Below are positions 31,001 through 40,000 of a stretch of 64,000 nt of DNA, piece after piece. The position numbers were made by a program. The DNA comes from Escherichia coli (GTDB taxonomy: Bacteria > Pseudomonadota > Gammaproteobacteria > Enterobacterales > Enterobacteriaceae), in the NCBI RefSeq assembly GCF_001677475.2, contig NZ_CP015229.1, one strand, 5' to 3'. The first letter of the stretch is position 1. Every line of letters starts with the position of its first letter.

Positions 31001-34000
31001 TTATTTCCTTATTACTCAATGCGTACAAAAAGACCGATATAGCCACGCGTTGTATCGTGACTAATGCGGGTCCCCGAAAGCGCCGTGTAACGACCGGGGA
31101 AGTTGTATTCACCAGCACCGCCAATCACAACCTGCGGTGAGGATGCGTATGTCCCTGTATCGCTAACCCGTGCACTCATAGCCAGAGGGCCAAGACGGGA
31201 ACCCGGCACAATATCACCGAGCCCCAGAGACGCATCTGCACCAAAACTCTCCCCCTGATATGCCGCCATAATCGGCACACCAACGGCCGGGTATTTATAA
31301 TATGAGCCTGAGCCCGCCATCCTGGACAGCAGGTACGCCAGTGAATCTCCGTCGTATACAACTACCCGCGATGACATGTTCCAGCTGTTATCGCTGTCGT
31401 TGTACCGGTACTGCATATAGTGAATACAGTGTTCACCCTGATAATACTGGTTGTAGCACATCAGGGTTTTAAATTTGCGGACTGTGTCGGATTCACTGTT
31501 GGCGTACGGTGACCACATCACATCAATAATGCCGTTAAATTGCGTGGTACCGGTAAGCAGTTGCGAGGAGTCTGTAATACTGACCGCATACCGCCCCGGC
31601 GTGACTTTCTTCAACCACTCAACGAAATCAGACAGCCCCTCAAACGCCAGAGCGTCAGTGCTGGTGAATGCCTGTCCAAACCCATACATCCCGGACAGGG
31701 CCAGCCTGCCCGGTGTGCGGTCACGGATATCACTCTGGGGTTCCATCGTCGCAGCCGCGTTCAGCTCAAGCTCCGTGCGCATGGCTTCAGCCGTGTCATG
31801 CGCCAGTAATGCGCGGCCCTTCTCTGACAGCAGAGACAGTGAGGCATTCCCGTCTGTATTGAAGTACAGAAGATTATCTGCCCGTTGCGTCAGTGCGCTG
31901 ATTGCCGTTAAGACGTCATTAAGCGGTTGTTTGCCTGCCAGCGCGTTTGTGATTGTCGTCGCAAAGTTCGGGTCATTGCCCAGCGCCGCTGCCAGCTCGT
32001 TCAGGGTGTCCAGAACTTCCGGCGATGAGCCAACCAGCGCAGCAAGCAGTTTGCGCACAAACGCTGCGTTCGCTGCTTCCAGACCGGCGGCATCATCCGG
32101 TGGGGTTGGGGTGGTTGGGGTGCCGGTGAAGGCCGGACTGTCCAGTGGCGCTTTTGTTTTCGCCTCGTCCATGACGTCTTTGACAGCCTTTGGCGTGGCA
32201 GCCAGTTCCTCGCTGTCGTTGTCCGTATCACTACAGAGTTGCACCAGACCTTTTTCTGTCGTGGAGGCATTTGTTGCATTCAGGTCATCAACTATCTGCT
32301 GCGCCTCATCCCTGTACTGTTTCGCTTCCTGCGCATTGTCTGCACCTGCATCCTGGCTGGCTTTAGCCTGTCGGGCGTATTCGGCGGCACTGTTTTTGTG
32401 CCCCAGCGCCGCATTTGCCGACAGTTCTGAACTGGTCGCTGCTGATGATGCGGCATTATGATAAAGGCGGGCGCGTTCGGCGGCATCGACTGATTCGTCC
32501 CGCGCTGTGCCTGATGACTGTGCGCTGTTTTCTGCCTCACCCGCAAAACGTTCCGCATCATCACGGGCCGTTGCGGTTGTCGTCACATCCTGTGCCGTCT
32601 GCTGTGCGTTTCCGGCTGCAGCTTCGGCGCTCTGCTGTGTCTGATTTTTTAGCTCTTCTGCCTCATCCTTACTAACCGCCGCAGATGTTGCTGCATTGAT
32701 TGCATCATCAGCAGCTGTTTCTGCTCTCTCCCTGTCACTGACCACCTGCTCAGACAAGCGAACAACGGTATTTACCATTTCCTCAAAACGCTTCATTACC
32801 TCAGGGCGTAAATCACCCTCCTTTGGTGCATCCAGAAAAGCATTCAGCGTATCCGGCTCATCTGTCGGTGCAACATAAATTTCCCCCGCCTTTACAGGAG
32901 GATGCCCTGAGCGGGACAAAAATACATCATAAAATCCCGGCTCAGCATTAATAGTATACCCGCCATCACTTCCCGTAAGACAGGTTGCCACAATATTAAC
33001 CACAACTGTCGGACTGGTTCTTCTGGCTCGCAATTCAATCGCACAGTTTACGACAGGCTCACCCGCTCCGTCCTTCAGGACACCTGAAATCTTTACTGCC
33101 ATATTCACCCCACAAAAAAGCCCGCCTGAACCCGGCGGGCTGTCATAACACTGTGTTACCTGGCTAATCAGAACTTATAACCGACACCCACGATGAAACC
33201 GTCAGTGCGCCAGTCGCCACTGCCGGAGCCTTCATAAGCAATATCAATAGCCACGGATTCGGTCGGGTTAAACTGCACGCCAGCTCCCCACGCCAGAGAC
33301 GTGTTGCTGTGGCGACCGTCATCACTTCCGGTCAGCACATCGTGCGTTTTCCCCTTATTGTCAGTTACGCGGAGATAATCCCCGGAGAAAGTCGACACAC
33401 GGCTGTAAGCCACACCCGCCATCGCATACGCGCTGAACCATTCATTCACGCGCACAGACGGCCCCGCCATTACGCTGAACCAGCGGTTACGAACGGAATC
33501 TTCATGCCAGCGGGTATCGCTGTAACGGGTCAGCTGGCGATTCTTGTCTCCTGCATAGCTGAATGACGTCACCATACCCAGTGTGTCCGTAAACTCATAA
33601 CGGTATTTCACGTTAATCCCGTTCAGATCATCGCTGCCGGGAACGTTCGTCGAGACATGAAGATACCCCGCGCTCAGCGTGGACTGATGTTCAGACGCCC
33701 ATGCAGGCGCACCGGATAAGGCCAGACAAATGGCTGCGGACAAAATGGCGGCATAAAGTTTACGCATAATTACCTCTCGCTTTTCTGCAATAAAAAAGGC
33801 GTCATTTCTGACGCCCGTTATGGGTTATAAAATTCAGCTGATACTGATACCTGCTGTGGATTTCTTCATCACCACAACCAGCAGATCGCTGATACTGGTT
33901 GTTGGTGTCCAGTTATTCGCTCCTGATGAAGATACGGTGAATGTCAGTGTCAGCGCCCCCTGTCCGGCAGGCATATCTATAACTGAGGAAAATACGCCCT

Positions 34001-37000: not shown

Positions 37001-40000
37001 TACTGAACGGGCGCGGCGGCAGGTTACCCACCACCACCGAGGCCAGATACTGTGAGGTGGTTTTTCCCTTAATGGTGATGTCTTTTTCCGTCACCCAGCC
37101 ACCGTTACGTTGTATCTGAACCAGCAGGCGGACTTCCGACGGATTCCGGTCCCCCTTTGAGGTGGTTTCCACCAGTGCCTGCACACCGAAGGTAAAGCGC
37201 AGACGGTCGATGTTTGCAGACGTGATGGTCCGGGTAATCGGCGTGTCGTACTTCACTTCCGTACCCAGCACCGTCTCGGAGCCGGAGGATTCAAATCCCT
37301 CCGGCGGTGTCTGCTCCTGCTCACCTGCACGGAACACCACCGTGACACCGGAGATATTGGTATTCCCCTCACTGTCCAGCACCGGCGTACTGTTCAGCAG
37401 CACGCTTTTTAATCCATCCACCGGACCTTCAACCGGCCCTTCGCTGATGGCATCGATCACACTCAGCAACTGCGTGGACTTCAGGTTATCCTTCGCTTCG
37501 CGCGGGGTATGCCCCTTACTGCTGCCTTTACCCATTCCTCACGCTCCATAAACGACAAAACCGCCCGCAGGCGGTTTCACATAAAACATATTAGACGTCA
37601 ACTAGTTTTGCCGACTCGCGCCAACTATACTGGCCGCACCCTTCAGGGCGACATCAAGTCGCGCTTGTTACTGCCTTCGCTGTCTTTTTCCTGTAGCTTT
37701 CCCCTTTCAGTTCGAACATATATCCGTGATGGAGCAGCCTGTCTGCCGCAGCCACCGCCATAGTCTCATCCACGAAGATGCTGCCCCACATGCTGAACGG
37801 ATGGTTACTGGTTATCACCAGGCTCCCACGTTCATAGCGATGCGCTATTAACTCGAACAGCACACCCGTTTCGGCACTATCGCGTTTGACATAGCCAAGA
37901 TCATCCACCACTATCACCCGGTAGCGATCCAGTTTCAGTAGCAGCTCATTCAGTTTCAACTGAGCTCTGGCTTTACGTAGTTCCTGCAACAGCTCTCCTG
38001 CGCTGTAGAACCGGGCCCGGTAGCCCTGACCTACTACGCCATCCACGATCGCTGCCGCCAGATGGCTTTTCCCCAACCCGCTGGCTCCGAACAGCAGAAC
38101 GTTTTCTCCTGCATCAACCCAGTCTGTCGTTTCACAGAGTTGCCGGAACTGAGCTCCATTCAGTTCCGGCACCTGACTGAAGTCGTATTCGCTCAGCGTT
38201 TTGGCAACTGGCAACCGGGCCTCCTTTTTATAACGACGCAGTTTTTCACTCTCGCGCCACAGGAGTTCTTCATTGCATAGCGTCAGAAGATAGCGCGATG
38301 GTGTCCAGCCTTCTGCCAGCGCTCGTTTTTCCAGAGCGTGCCATTCAGCTCCAACTCGTGTCAGGCGTAGTTTACGCAGGCTATGTTCAAGGTGATGGAT
38401 ATTGCTCACTGCGAACCTCCCTTGCCACGCAGTAGTTGCTCATAACTGCTCAGGTTATGCTGTATCACATTGACTACCGGCAACGCCTTTTCTTTTATAC
38501 CCAGGAAGCGCATCAGCCGGTGCAGATCCACGTTTCCCGGGGTATTCAGCATCTGCTCCATACCTTTTGCCACGACTGAGATATCGTCGTATCCTGCAGC
38601 CAGTTTCAGGGCATGTACCATCAGCCTTCCTGCCATATCGGGCTCCAGATGATTACATAAGCGACGCCACAGCCTCCGCCATTCATCGTCCGGCAGGATG
38701 TCATTTCTCAGCGTTGCATGGCAGAACGCACCGGGCTTTTTTGCCAGACTGTCGATCACATGTCGGAAGTCGATACGACGGGCCCGCGTCTTCCCTTTTT
38801 CTGGTCTGACGCGAGGGCAGCTCATGACCTCGCTGCTGCCAACGTAACAGCTCAGACGATCGTCCCATAACCTGACCCGTAACAGTTGACCTACAAGCCG
38901 GGAAGGTACGCTGTAGACGACGTGCTTCACATTGATGGTACTGCTGCGACTAACCCTCACAGTCAGCTCATCATAGTCAGCACTGCGACGAAGCGGCAGC
39001 GGTTTCAGATGAAGACGTTCTTCCTTGACCAGATCCTGATTGTTACGGTTGTGCCGCATAACCTGCTGAGTGATGAAGGCCTGATATTCTTCTATGGTGC
39101 TGAAGTCGTTACTGCCCCGCAGTATCAGCGCCTGACAGATACGCCTTTTCAGATGTCCGTGGGCACTTTCAACCGAGCCATTTTCGTGGCCCCGACCGGC
39201 ATTATTGTGTACGCCCTGCATTCCGTAGTGCTGACAGAGAGTAGCATAACGCTCAGTCAGCTCGCGGCGTCCATCTTCGCCCTGTTGTTTCCATGCTGCC
39301 CTCAGGCTGTCCGTTTTATGTTCTACCGGCACTCCGCCCAGTTGTCCGAGGGCTTCCTGCAGGCCTTCAGCCAGAGCAGAGAAGCTCTCACCACCCAGAA
39401 CAACCCGCATCCAGCTCCAGTGGCTCCATTCCAGACGGAAGTGATACAACTTATGCGCCAACAACTTACCGGCGATGGTGACAACTACACCTTTCAGTTC
39501 AGTAAAGTCCGACAGGCCTCGCAGGCCGGGCTGATGTTGCTGGCGGAACATGACCTCCTGCTCTGTACCATACTGTAGTTTCCATTCGCGAACCCGCCGT
39601 TGCATTGTTCTTCGAAGGCTGTTGGGGTACTGGCCGGGATATTTATCCTGTAGCATCTCCAGTAGAGTTGTTGGTGTCAGAGCCGGCCTCTCTTTCAACA
39701 GAGGAACAAGCATGCTGTCCCACACAGCTTCCAGAGGATCTTTGCGTGTGCGCCAGTGCCGAACACTGTTTTTTGCCCACTCTCCTTTTTCGATCCGACG
39801 ACCAGAACGGACTGAGATACCAGCCTTCATGGCCGAGATATGCTGAGTTATACCTTTCTTACGCTGAGTCATATAGTAACTGACCTGAGAAGTATTGAGC
39901 GTCACGCCATTTCCTGTTGGATCATGTAAATGACACTCAGGTTACAAAACCGGCCAGAATAATCGGCGCCAGGCGGACTGAGTTATTGTCGTCTCATAAA

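What the first reader, a model, noticed from the sequence alone, without database searches (positions are those of the whole stretch)
33834..37535. J tail-tip protein with lambda-like N-terminus but longer, divergent C-terminal receptor region
The first 800 or so residues track lambda J closely, but the protein is 1233 aa vs 1132 in lambda and carries a Ser/Gln/Glu-rich coiled-coil-like insert (…[46 protein letters not shown]…) and a different C-terminal domain. Lambda's C-terminus binds LamB, so this phage probably uses a different receptor. Together with a distinct Stf distal domain and lom, this defines host range.
Basis: partly seen in the sequence, partly recalled or inferred. Interest (0 to 1): 0.4.

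Follow-up and report, generated by a model that had tools for sequence, protein, structure and literature searches.

The report
OmpC-type lambda J with long shaft
This is an intact tail-tip (J) protein of a Shiga-toxin-2g prophage; its receptor-binding end is almost identical to one already shown to bind the porin OmpC instead of lambda's LamB, and its extra 100 residues lengthen a helical stalk in a way that is common among E. coli prophages, so the finding is real but ordinary.

Summary
An intact 1233-aa ORF lies at 33834-37535, on the minus strand. It has the full lambda gpJ domain set and sits between gene I and lom.

It is a mosaic:
- aa 1-714 are 97% identical to lambda J.
- aa 839-939 are about 101 extra residues.
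- aa 941-1063 are phage-21-like.
- aa 1075-1233 are 158/159 identical to the 'A8' gpJ C-terminus.

A8 uses OmpC, not LamB (Brodel 2024), and PDB 9wcb holds it together with OmpC.

The insert is not in the receptor-binding domain. It expands the alpha-helical shaft, which is aa 809-861 in lambda. It consists of four degenerate 29-residue repeats, has a 3.63-residue hydrophobic period and no proline, and AF2 predicts one helix over aa 826-961.

Long-shaft J genes are not rare. About 14% of complete E. coli genomes carry one, as does the plaque-forming phage PhiR40.1. The shaft length combines freely with several receptor-binding domain types.

Context: the prophage encodes Stx2g and abuts ssrA. 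An ISEc10 element sits between I and J, so expression of J is uncertain.

Verdict: a new member of a known kind, of modest interest.

The parts
33834..37535 (-). J (central tail fibre / tip attachment protein) CDS, 1233 aa plus stop
   Evidence: ORF; translation. Pfam FNIII-A_GpJ, Phage-tail_3, Ig_J, Ig_J_second, Phage_Tail_Tip and Ig_GpJ_C, all above cut-off. NCBIfam lambda_TipJ 2333 bits against a cut-off of 1950.
35394..37535 (-). aa 1-714: hub domains plus FNIII-1, the lambda-like conserved part
   Evidence: 97% identical to lambda J and 97-99% to the other J proteins compared with a lambda-type hub (about 73% to the divergent-hub J of strains 08-00022, 9 and 10). Aligned 1:1 to PDB 8iyk.
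35082..35390 (-). aa 716-818: second Ig/FNIII domain (FNIII-2), where divergence from lambda begins
   Evidence: Pfam Ig_J_second 716-818. 77% identity to lambda over aa 715-808.
34653..35111 (-). aa 809-961: extended alpha-helical shaft (equivalent to lambda AHS 809-861)
   Evidence: Lambda AHS limits from PMC11101478. AF2 predicts helices at 811-822 and 826-961. No Pro and few Gly; hydrophobic period 3.6-3.65. The anchor-motif distance is 148 residues, against 75 in phage 21 and 47 in lambda.
34719..35021 (-). aa 839-939: the ~101 residues with no counterpart in lambda J (73 of them also absent from phage 21 / PhiR70_1)
   Evidence: MAFFT alignment and position map; phmmer split of the match to 8iyk.
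34677..35024 (-). aa 838-953: four degenerate 29-residue repeats that make up most of the shaft
   Evidence: Self-similarity peaks at offset 29: mean BLOSUM 0.85 against a shuffle maximum of 0.57. Other helix-compatible offsets score <=0.32 over aa 826-965 and <=0.17 over aa 809-982. Related-unit scores are 31-46. No DNA-level tandem repeat.
34212..34652 (-). aa 962-1108: beta-prism 'central straight fibre' segment, of the phage 21 / PhiR70_1 type
   Evidence: Pfam Phage_Tail_Tip 945-1073. 96-97% identity to phage 21 and PhiR70_1 over aa 963-1063, against 74% to lambda. AF2 predicts beta strands.
33837..34211 (-). aa 1109-1233: Ig-like receptor-binding domain, A8 / PhiR70_1 type (OmpC-binding)
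   Evidence: Pfam Ig_GpJ_C. 99% identity to A8 gpJ (PDB 9wca/9wcb), PhiR70_1 and N96; 81% to phage 21; 42% to lambda. AF2 pLDDT 74-94.
33837..34313 (-). aa 1075-1233: the stretch that corresponds to the non-lambda part of the A8 chimera; 158/159 identical (A1194 here, T in A8)
   Evidence: Position 1194 aligns to lambda N1092.
37550..37577 (-). GC-rich hairpin plus T-run (terminator-like) followed by the RBS, directly upstream of the J ATG; conserved in strain N96 and annotated as a terminator in phage 21
   Evidence: Sequence; phage 21 annotation.
37590..39998 (-). ISEc10 (IS21 family; istA 38406-39905, istB 37654-38409) inserted in the I-J intergenic spacer, in the same orientation as J, flanked by a 6-7 bp duplication (A)TGTTTT
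   Evidence: Pfam IstB_IS21. 99.8% identical to annotated ISEc10 copies. Junctions mapped against the uninterrupted N96 locus.
40012..40683 (-). Gene I (tail assembly protein), the upstream neighbour
   Evidence: Pfam Lambda_tail_I.
33168..33767 (-). lom (Ail/Lom outer-membrane protein), the downstream neighbour
   Evidence: Pfam Ail_Lom 1-199/199, E 1.5e-119.
31012..33108 (-). Side tail fibre (stf-like, 698 aa)
   Evidence: Pfam phage_tail_N and Phage_fiber_2.
30425..30997 (-). DUF4376 protein in the position of the tail-fibre assembly gene
   Evidence: Pfam DUF4376. Same arrangement in strain N96.

Best explanation
This is the intact central tail fibre (J) of a lambda-tailed, Stx2g-converting prophage. 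It is assembled by recombination from four modules.

1. A lambda-type hub and FNIII part (aa 1-~714) that builds the tail tip.
2. A long trimeric alpha-helical shaft (aa ~809-961), three times the length of lambda's and made of four 29-residue repeats.
3. A phage-21-type beta-prism fibre (aa ~962-1108).
4. An Ig-like receptor-binding domain of the 'A8' type (aa 1109-1233).

The virion would bind the porin OmpC with this tip, not LamB. Binding would then trigger the same opening of the tail tip as in lambda.

The extra ~100 residues should make the fibre about 15 nm longer (101 x 0.15 nm). They do not set receptor identity.

What is shown: ORF integrity, domain content, the mosaic boundaries, near-identity to a receptor-binding domain proven to bind OmpC, and the helical character and repeat structure of the insert.

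What is inferred: that this particular protein binds OmpC, that the shaft is a trimeric coiled coil, the length gain, and that the gene is still expressed despite the upstream IS.
For: - Identity as J. Pfam architecture. NCBIfam lambda_TipJ above cut-off. 97% identity to lambda J over aa 1-714 and a 1:1 alignment to PDB 8iyk. Synteny H-M-L-K-I-[IS]-J-lom-stf.
- Receptor. aa 1075-1233 are 158/159 identical to the A8 gpJ part of PDB 9wca/9wcb. 9wcb also holds three OmpC chains. A8 particles deliver DNA via OmpC in a lamB/ompC-deleted strain complemented with ompC, and work on most of 23 OmpC variants (PMC11338833). The same receptor-binding domain is in the plaque-forming phages PhiR70_1 and Chlobot and in many Stx1a/Stx2a phage records.
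- Shaft. The insert falls inside lambda's AHS, aa 809-861 (PMC11101478). It has no proline, a 3.6-3.65 hydrophobic period and a 29-residue repeat. AF2 predicts a helix at 826-961. It aligns to the long repetitive shaft of the solved fibre 9l9p.
- Function of the long form. PhiR40.1 carries a 1232-aa J and forms plaques.
- Modularity. The identical shaft occurs with other receptor-binding domains, and the identical domain occurs with shorter shafts.
Against: - No adsorption data exist for this protein. One substitution (T1194A, at the lambda N1092-equivalent position) separates it from A8, and I could not place that position relative to the OmpC contact loops.
- A8 was tested on lambda's short shaft and lambda's beta-prism, not in this long-shaft, phage-21-type context.
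- Which OmpC alleles are recognised is unknown.
- The AF2 model is a monomer from a 13-sequence alignment, with pLDDT of only 50-67 in the helix.
- A 2.4-kb ISEc10 separates J from the rest of the late operon. That could reduce or abolish J expression, so the prophage may not make infectious particles.
Confidence: 0.8

Rival explanations
1. The long shaft is not a passive spacer. It is an enlarged fold-switching 'spring': on receptor binding, much of the coiled coil refolds into beta-prism, as the 163-residue coiled coil of the F7 pyocin central fibre does and as lambda residues 841-861 do. This pulls the tail tip to the membrane with a larger stroke. It is compatible with the best explanation.
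For: - In lambda, AHS residues 841-861 convert to beta-sheet and the fibre shortens from 29.7 to 13.2 nm on LamB binding (PMC11101478).
- The J-homologous F7 pyocin fibre switches a 163-residue coiled coil to a beta-prism, and similar switches are predicted for 21 of 24 phage fibres (PMC12874032).
- The shaft here (about 150 residues) is of that size and sits directly N-terminal to the beta-prism.
- There is weak sequence similarity to the F2 pyocin fibre, 1018-1132.
Against: - The SxSxxMxxLxS motif reported for fold-switching strands is not enriched: 1 hit against 1.1 expected, and lambda's own switching segment also lacks it.
- The 29-residue helical repeats show no significant similarity to the first beta-prism unit (scores -12 to 15).
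- Only a monomer prediction could be run, and it gave only a helix.
Confidence: 0.3
2. The J gene is an intact but silent remnant. The ISEc10 insertion between I and J uncouples J, lom and stf from late transcription, so the prophage cannot make adsorbing particles and its host-range determinant is currently irrelevant.
For: - A 2409-bp ISEc10 lies 13 nt after the stop of I and 54 nt before the J ATG.
- ISEc10 also disrupts gene V and gene A in other lambda-like prophages, which shows that such prophages decay this way.
- The Stx2g phage of strain 7V was reported as not induced by mitomycin C (PMC3491183).
Against: - The insertion is intergenic and in the same orientation as J. The J ORF, its RBS and the native hairpin are untouched.
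- From established knowledge of lambda late transcription, Q-modified RNA polymerase reads through terminators, and a terminator-like hairpin already sits at this junction in functional phages such as phage 21.
- J carries no frameshift or stop, unlike the J of E2348/69.
Confidence: 0.3
3. The tip binds a receptor other than OmpC (for example OmpF, LamB or another porin), because the T1194A change or the different fibre context alters specificity.
For: From general knowledge of lambda J host-range evolution, and not checked here, few point mutations in the receptor-binding domain are thought to be enough to shift receptor use. PMC11101478 refers to gpJ point mutations that allow OmpF use. The 1A2 and A8 variants differ in which OmpC alleles they accept.
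Against: - 158/159 identity to a domain solved in complex with OmpC.
- The A1194 variant recurs in other deposited E. coli sequences that are 100% identical over the last 433 aa, so it is a natural polymorphism.
- The domain works on different shafts, in PhiR70_1 and in the lambda chimera.
Confidence: 0.08

Closest known systems
Bacteriophage lambda J (gpJ, 1132 aa; PDB 8iyk, 8xcg-8xck)
   Same: Same gene position, same Pfam domain order, 97% identity over aa 1-714, and the same hub / FNIII / helical shaft / beta-prism / Ig-like receptor-binding domain layout.
   Different: The shaft is about 101 residues longer. The beta-prism is only 74% identical and the receptor-binding domain only 42%. 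Lambda binds LamB; this domain type binds OmpC.
A8 gpJ chimera (Brodel et al. 2024; PDB 9wca, 9wcb) and its natural carriers PhiR70_1 and Chlobot
   Same: The last 159 residues are identical but for one. OmpC is the demonstrated receptor of A8.
   Different: A8 is mounted on lambda's short shaft and PhiR70_1 has the medium shaft (1160 aa). Here the same tip sits on the long shaft. One substitution, T1194A.
J of phage PhiR40.1 / PhiR49.2 and of E. coli prophages in strains N96, 09-00049, 08-00022, 2015C-4136CT1, 9 and 10
   Same: All are long-form J proteins of 1230-1233 aa with the same 148-residue anchor distance, confirmed for all listed except strain 10, whose second anchor motif was not found. 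N96 is 98.6% identical at the nucleotide level, with 10 aa differences.
   Different: All except N96 and (partly) 2015C-4136CT1 carry other receptor-binding domain types: PhiR40.1-type, or lambda-like in strain 10.
Phage 21 J (1160 aa, 'central tail fiber')
   Same: 96% identical over the beta-prism (aa 963-1063) and 81% over the receptor-binding domain. The C-terminal shaft repeat is shared.
   Different: It lacks 73 residues of the shaft. I did not find its receptor documented in the searchable library.
Central fibre proteins of F-type pyocins (F7, F2; PDB 25vf) and of other siphophages (PDB 9l9p, 23gd)
   Same: Homologous N-terminal hub (E 1e-86 to 1e-131). A long coiled-coil region precedes a beta-prism.
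   Different: Only weak similarity in the shaft (E 6e-7 to 0.02). The published fold-switch motif is not detectable here. The receptor-binding ends differ.

Membership tests
Lambda-type tip attachment protein J (central tail fibre) | Sequence match to the curated family model above its cut-off | tested here: met
   NCBIfam NF049904 lambda_TipJ scores 2333 bits against a cut-off of 1950.
Lambda-type tip attachment protein J (central tail fibre) | Complete domain series: FNIII-A, hub (Phage-tail_3), two Ig/FNIII domains, tail-tip fibre, C-terminal Ig-like receptor-binding domain | tested here: met
   All six Pfam families are above their gathering scores and in the lambda order.
Lambda-type tip attachment protein J (central tail fibre) | Gene position downstream of H-M-L-K-I and upstream of lom/stf in a lambda-like tail operon | tested here: met
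   apart from the ISEc10 inserted between I and J.
Lambda-type tip attachment protein J (central tail fibre) | Assembles as a trimer at the tail tip and triggers DNA ejection | not testable with these tools
   Inferred from 97% identity of the hub region to lambda J, whose structure is solved.
LamB-binding receptor-binding domain of lambda J | High identity to lambda J residues ~1008-1132 (loops L1-L4 that insert into LamB) | tested here: not met
   42% identity with indels in the loop regions.
OmpC-binding 'A8-type' gpJ receptor-binding domain | Sequence identity to the A8 C-terminal segment | tested here: met
   158/159 identical over aa 1075-1233.
OmpC-binding 'A8-type' gpJ receptor-binding domain | OmpC-dependent, LamB-independent adsorption or DNA delivery | not testable with these tools
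   Shown for A8 itself (PMC11338833), and an A8-OmpC complex is deposited as PDB 9wcb. Not shown for this protein.
Fold-switching central fibre proteins (coiled coil to beta-prism; He et al. 2026 preprint) | Long, high-propensity coiled coil directly N-terminal to a beta-prism seed | tested here: met
   Helix predicted at 826-961, followed by beta strands. 3.63 periodicity and no proline.
Fold-switching central fibre proteins (coiled coil to beta-prism; He et al. 2026 preprint) | Recurrent SxSxxMxxLxS strand motif in the switching region | tested here: not met
   1 match against 1.1 expected from shuffles; no match in lambda's known switching segment either.
Fold-switching central fibre proteins (coiled coil to beta-prism; He et al. 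2026 preprint) | Two alternative predicted or observed trimer conformations | not testable with these tools
   Only monomer AF2 was available. Trimer AF3 or CF-random, or cryo-EM, would be needed.

The most novel reading that the evidence does not exclude
E. coli lambda-like J proteins come in three discrete shaft lengths, with anchor distances of 47, 75 and 148 residues. The longer shafts contain 29-residue helical repeats (four in the long form). The long form, seen here on an Stx2g prophage, could be an enlarged coiled-coil-to-beta-prism 'spring'. It would give about 15 nm more reach through O-antigen or capsule and a larger contraction stroke. Because the same receptor-binding domain occurs naturally on short (engineered), medium and long shafts, this would be a ready-made natural experiment for testing the fold-switch model of envelope penetration by non-contractile tails.
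Probability: 0.25. Interest if true: 0.55.

Novelty: new member of a known kind. Interest (0 to 1): 0.3.

Why it matters
- It assigns a concrete, testable receptor (OmpC) to a long-tailed Stx2g-converting prophage. That bears on which E. coli strains could acquire stx2g by lysogenic conversion.
- The same receptor-binding domain type is shared by many Stx1a and Stx2a phage records.
- That module is barely represented among sequenced phage isolates. It is therefore missing from the structural work so far, which has used lambda's unusually short shaft.

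Tried and rejected
1. Rarity of the insert. Megablast found it in only 31 of 5426 genomes and tblastn in only 2 phage records. A sensitive blastn raised the genome count to 749, so 'rare insert' was rejected. Only this sequence variant is rare.
2. F7-pyocin fold-switch motif scan: no enrichment.
3. Recent tandem duplication at the DNA level: TRF found nothing. The repeats are visible only in the protein.
4. Extension of the 29-residue repeat into the beta-prism or the FNIII-proximal helix: not supported.
5. Placing the T1194A substitution relative to the receptor-contact loops: the lambda structure paper gives no residue ranges in its text, and no coordinates were available.
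6. Published receptor data for the PhiR phages and for phage 21: nothing usable in the searchable library.
7. The paper behind PDB 9wca/9wcb: not found in the library. The complex was inferred from the chain content of the entry.
8. The long antisense ORF 35490-36605 (+, 371 aa, TTG start) inside J has no Pfam match and is taken as spurious.
9. Whether the same ISEc10 insertion exists elsewhere: in strains N96 and 510016 the IS sits in other genes, so there is no shared event.

Full report
**Observation.** The coordinates 33834-37535 hold one uninterrupted ORF of 1233 codons that starts with ATG. The plus-strand translation of the same interval is full of stops.

Pfam finds the complete gpJ series, each family far above its gathering score:
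- FNIII-A_GpJ, aa 86-207
- Phage-tail_3, aa 330-496
- Ig_J, aa 610-714
- Ig_J_second, aa 716-818
- Phage_Tail_Tip, aa 945-1073
- Ig_GpJ_C, aa 1109-1233

The NCBIfam model lambda_TipJ scores 2333 bits against a cut-off of 1950. The neighbours are those of lambda: tape measure H, L, K and I upstream, and lom, a side tail fibre and a fibre-assembly-position gene downstream.

**Anatomy.** I aligned the protein with several reference J proteins:
- lambda J
- phage 21 J
- PhiR70_1 J and PhiR40_1 J
- J of prophages in E. coli strains N96, 2015C-4136CT1, 09-00049, 08-00022, 9 and 10
- the sequence of PDB chain 9wca_J ('A8 gpJ 713')

The protein is a mosaic:
- aa 1-714 are 97% identical to lambda and 97-99% to the other J proteins with a lambda-type hub.
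- Identity to lambda then falls to 77% (aa 715-808) and about 52% (aa 809-836).
- About 101 residues (aa 839-939) have no counterpart in lambda, and 73 of them have none in phage 21 or PhiR70_1.
- aa 963-1063 are 96-97% identical to phage 21 and PhiR70_1, against 74% to lambda.
- aa 1109-1233 are 99% identical to A8, PhiR70_1 and N96, 81% to phage 21 and 42% to lambda.

The closest full-length relative in 5426 complete E. coli genomes is the gpJ of strain N96: 98.6% at the nucleotide level and 10 amino-acid differences. The last 433 residues occur with 100% identity in deposited E. coli protein records, where they carry generic annotations.

**Receptor.** The PDB construct 'A8 gpJ 713' is lambda J from residue 713 with a foreign C-terminus. 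Its non-lambda part corresponds to aa 1075-1233 here and differs at one position: T in A8, A1194 here, aligned with lambda N1092.

Brodel et al. [quoted passage not shown] They screened on a lamB deletion strain. They showed delivery into a lamB/ompC-deleted strain complemented with ompC alleles. A8, 1A2 or both gave efficient delivery for 21 of 23 OmpC variants, and A8 worked on both the MG1655 and the EDL933 OmpC. The follow-up preprint states the same.

PDB entry 9wcb contains three chains named 'Outer membrane porin C' in addition to A8 gpJ, so a structure of the complex has been deposited. I did not find its paper.

What remains inferred is that the single substitution and the different fibre context do not change this.

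The same receptor-binding domain, at 97% identity or more over the last 170 aa, is found in 44 phage records. These include PhiR70_1, Chlobot and many Stx1a- and Stx2a-converting phages.

**The insert.** Ge and Wang (Nat Commun 2024, PMC11101478) divide the lambda fibre into FNIII domains, an alpha-helical shaft (AHS, residues 809-861), a beta-prism 'central straight fibre' and the receptor-binding domain. On LamB binding, residues 841-861 of the shaft refold into beta-sheet, and the distance from the FNIII domains to the tip shrinks from 29.7 to 13.2 nm.

The extra residues here lie between lambda positions 838 and 839. That is inside the shaft, not in the receptor-binding region.

Evidence that the segment is helical:
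- It has no proline and three glycines, and is rich in Gln, Ser and Glu.
- It has a sharp hydrophobic periodicity of 3.6-3.65 residues.
- It shows a self-similarity peak at an offset of 29 residues, about eight helical turns. The mean BLOSUM62 score is 0.85, against a maximum of 0.57 in 300 shuffles. Other helix-compatible offsets score <=0.32 over aa 826-965 and <=0.17 over aa 809-982.
- Four units (aa 838, 867, 896, 925) are recognisably related, with pairwise scores of 31-46. No repeat is detectable in the DNA, so the repeats are old.
- A monomer AlphaFold2 model of aa 801-1233 gives a continuous helix over aa 826-961. Confidence there is low (pLDDT 50-67), as expected for one chain of a trimer. 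The helix is followed by beta structure and a confident Ig-like domain, pLDDT 74-94.
- The shaft aligns with the long repetitive region of another solved central fibre, 9l9p (E 6e-7), and weakly with an F2 pyocin fibre.

Measured between two conserved anchor motifs, the shaft comes in three lengths: 47 residues (lambda), 75 (phage 21, PhiR70_1, strain 510016) and 148 (this protein and every long form in which both anchors were found). If the extra 101 residues are helical, they add about 15 nm. That figure is an inference.

**How common and how modular.** A megablast search suggested the insert was rare, with 31 genomes. That search only detects close variants. A sensitive blastn finds the segment, covered at 80% or more, in 749 of 5426 complete genomes (about 14%), mostly at about 77% nucleotide identity. 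Two such hits that I checked are intact J genes of 1230 and 1231 aa.

Only two of 50,697 phage records have the insert, PhiR40_1 and PhiR49_2. PhiR40.1 is used as a plaque-forming phage in a recent preprint, so the long form is functional.

The identical shaft is joined to a PhiR40.1-type receptor-binding domain in strains 09-00049, 08-00022 and a second N96 prophage. Diverged long shafts are joined to a PhiR40.1-type domain (strain 9) and to a lambda-like domain, 80% identical to lambda's (strain 10). The PhiR40.1-type domain also occurs on a medium shaft in strain 510016. The A8-type domain occurs on medium (PhiR70_1) and short (A8 chimera) shafts. Shaft length and receptor-binding domain are therefore independent recombination modules, and the long shaft does not define the receptor.

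**Possible active role of the shaft.** A 2026 preprint (PMC12874032) reports that the J-homologous central fibre of the F7 pyocin converts a 163-residue coiled coil into a beta-prism on target binding. Mutations blocking the switch abolish killing, and similar switches are predicted for 21 of 24 phage fibres. The shaft here is of similar size and position.

I tested the one sequence criterion the authors give, the SxSxxMxxLxS motif. It is not enriched: 1 hit against 1.1 expected. It is also absent from lambda's experimentally switching segment. The test therefore does not support the idea, but it may not be diagnostic for the lambda subgroup. I keep this as the most novel reading, at about 0.25 probability.

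**Context and expression.** The prophage is Stx-converting:
- stxA (60793-61752, minus strand) passes the curated cut-off of the Stx2g model, 746 bits against 736. An 89-aa stxB follows it.
- tRNA-Arg and tRNA-Met genes and a DNA methylase lie just upstream.
- The tail-fibre end of the prophage abuts ssrA (tmRNA at 29864-30226). ssrA is a documented Stx-phage insertion site (PMC3491183).

A 2409-bp ISEc10 (IS21 family), 99.8% identical to copies elsewhere, is inserted 13 nt after the stop of I and 54 nt before the J start. It is in the same orientation as J and is flanked by a 6-7 bp duplication, (A)TGTTTT. The J ORF, its ribosome-binding site and the conserved upstream hairpin are untouched. 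No complete genome in the collection shares this insertion. In other prophages ISEc10 sits in V or in A.

Whether J is still transcribed is open. From established knowledge of lambda, Q-antiterminated late transcription reads through terminators, and functional phages already carry a terminator-like hairpin at this junction. I give about 0.3 to the prophage being unable to express J properly.

**Verdict.** The object, however, is a recombinant of modules that are each known:
- a lambda hub;
- a long helical shaft, common in E. coli prophages;
- a phage-21-type beta-prism;
- an OmpC-binding domain that has been characterised functionally and structurally.

It is a new member of a known kind, of modest interest. 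The useful outputs are a named receptor for an Stx2g prophage and the recognition that shaft length is a separate, discretely variable module.

Noticed in passing
window 60511-61752 (-): Shiga toxin genes. stxA (319 aa) scores 746 bits on the NCBIfam Stx2g subunit A model (cut-off 736), and an 89-aa stxB follows it. The J gene therefore belongs to an Stx2g-converting, lambda-tailed prophage. The closest stx region in complete genomes is in strain MFDS1022581, at 98.2% identity.
   Followed up: partly
window 37590-39998 (-): ISEc10 (IS21 family, istA plus istB) is inserted cleanly in the 60-nt I-J spacer, with a 6-7 bp target duplication, (A)TGTTTT. This insertion is not seen in any of 5426 complete E. 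coli genomes.
   Followed up: yes
L010:1590-3841 (strain N96, second prophage) and L011:594-2845 (strain 510016): Independent ISEc10 copies interrupt the tail-tube gene V and the terminase gene A of other lambda-like prophages. This suggests that this IS repeatedly lands in lambda-type structural operons.
   Followed up: no
window 29864-30226 (+) and 30425 onwards: The tmRNA gene ssrA lies directly next to the tail-fibre end of the prophage (smpB at 29167-29649). The integrase end must lie beyond the window. ssrA is a known Stx-phage integration site.
   Followed up: partly
window 26063-30500: The chromosomal flank (recN-bamE-ratA-smpB-ssrA) is at best 98.7% identical to any of 5426 complete E. 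coli genomes. The host therefore appears to be an E. coli lineage not closely represented in that collection.
   Followed up: no
window 61843-61919 and 62021-62096 (-); 62137-63123 (-): tRNA-Arg(tct) and tRNA-Met genes and an N6/N4 DNA methyltransferase lie immediately upstream of stx.
   Followed up: no
window 30425-30997 (-): The gene in the tail-fibre-assembly position is a DUF4376 protein, not a lambda Tfa-type chaperone. It sits downstream of a 698-aa Stf whose N-terminal domain is conserved. Strain N96 has the same arrangement.
   Followed up: no
phage and E. coli genome collections: Long-shaft J genes are in about 14% of complete E. coli genomes but in only 2 of 50,697 phage records. 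Either isolation on laboratory hosts under-samples them, or many of them sit in defective prophages.
   Followed up: partly
L009:994-4708 (E. coli E2348/69): The long-form gpJ of the prototype EPEC strain E2348/69 is annotated as a frameshifted pseudogene.
   Followed up: no
window 35490-36605 (+): A 371-codon TTG-initiated ORF runs antisense inside J. It has no Pfam match and is probably a by-product of codon composition.
   Followed up: partly
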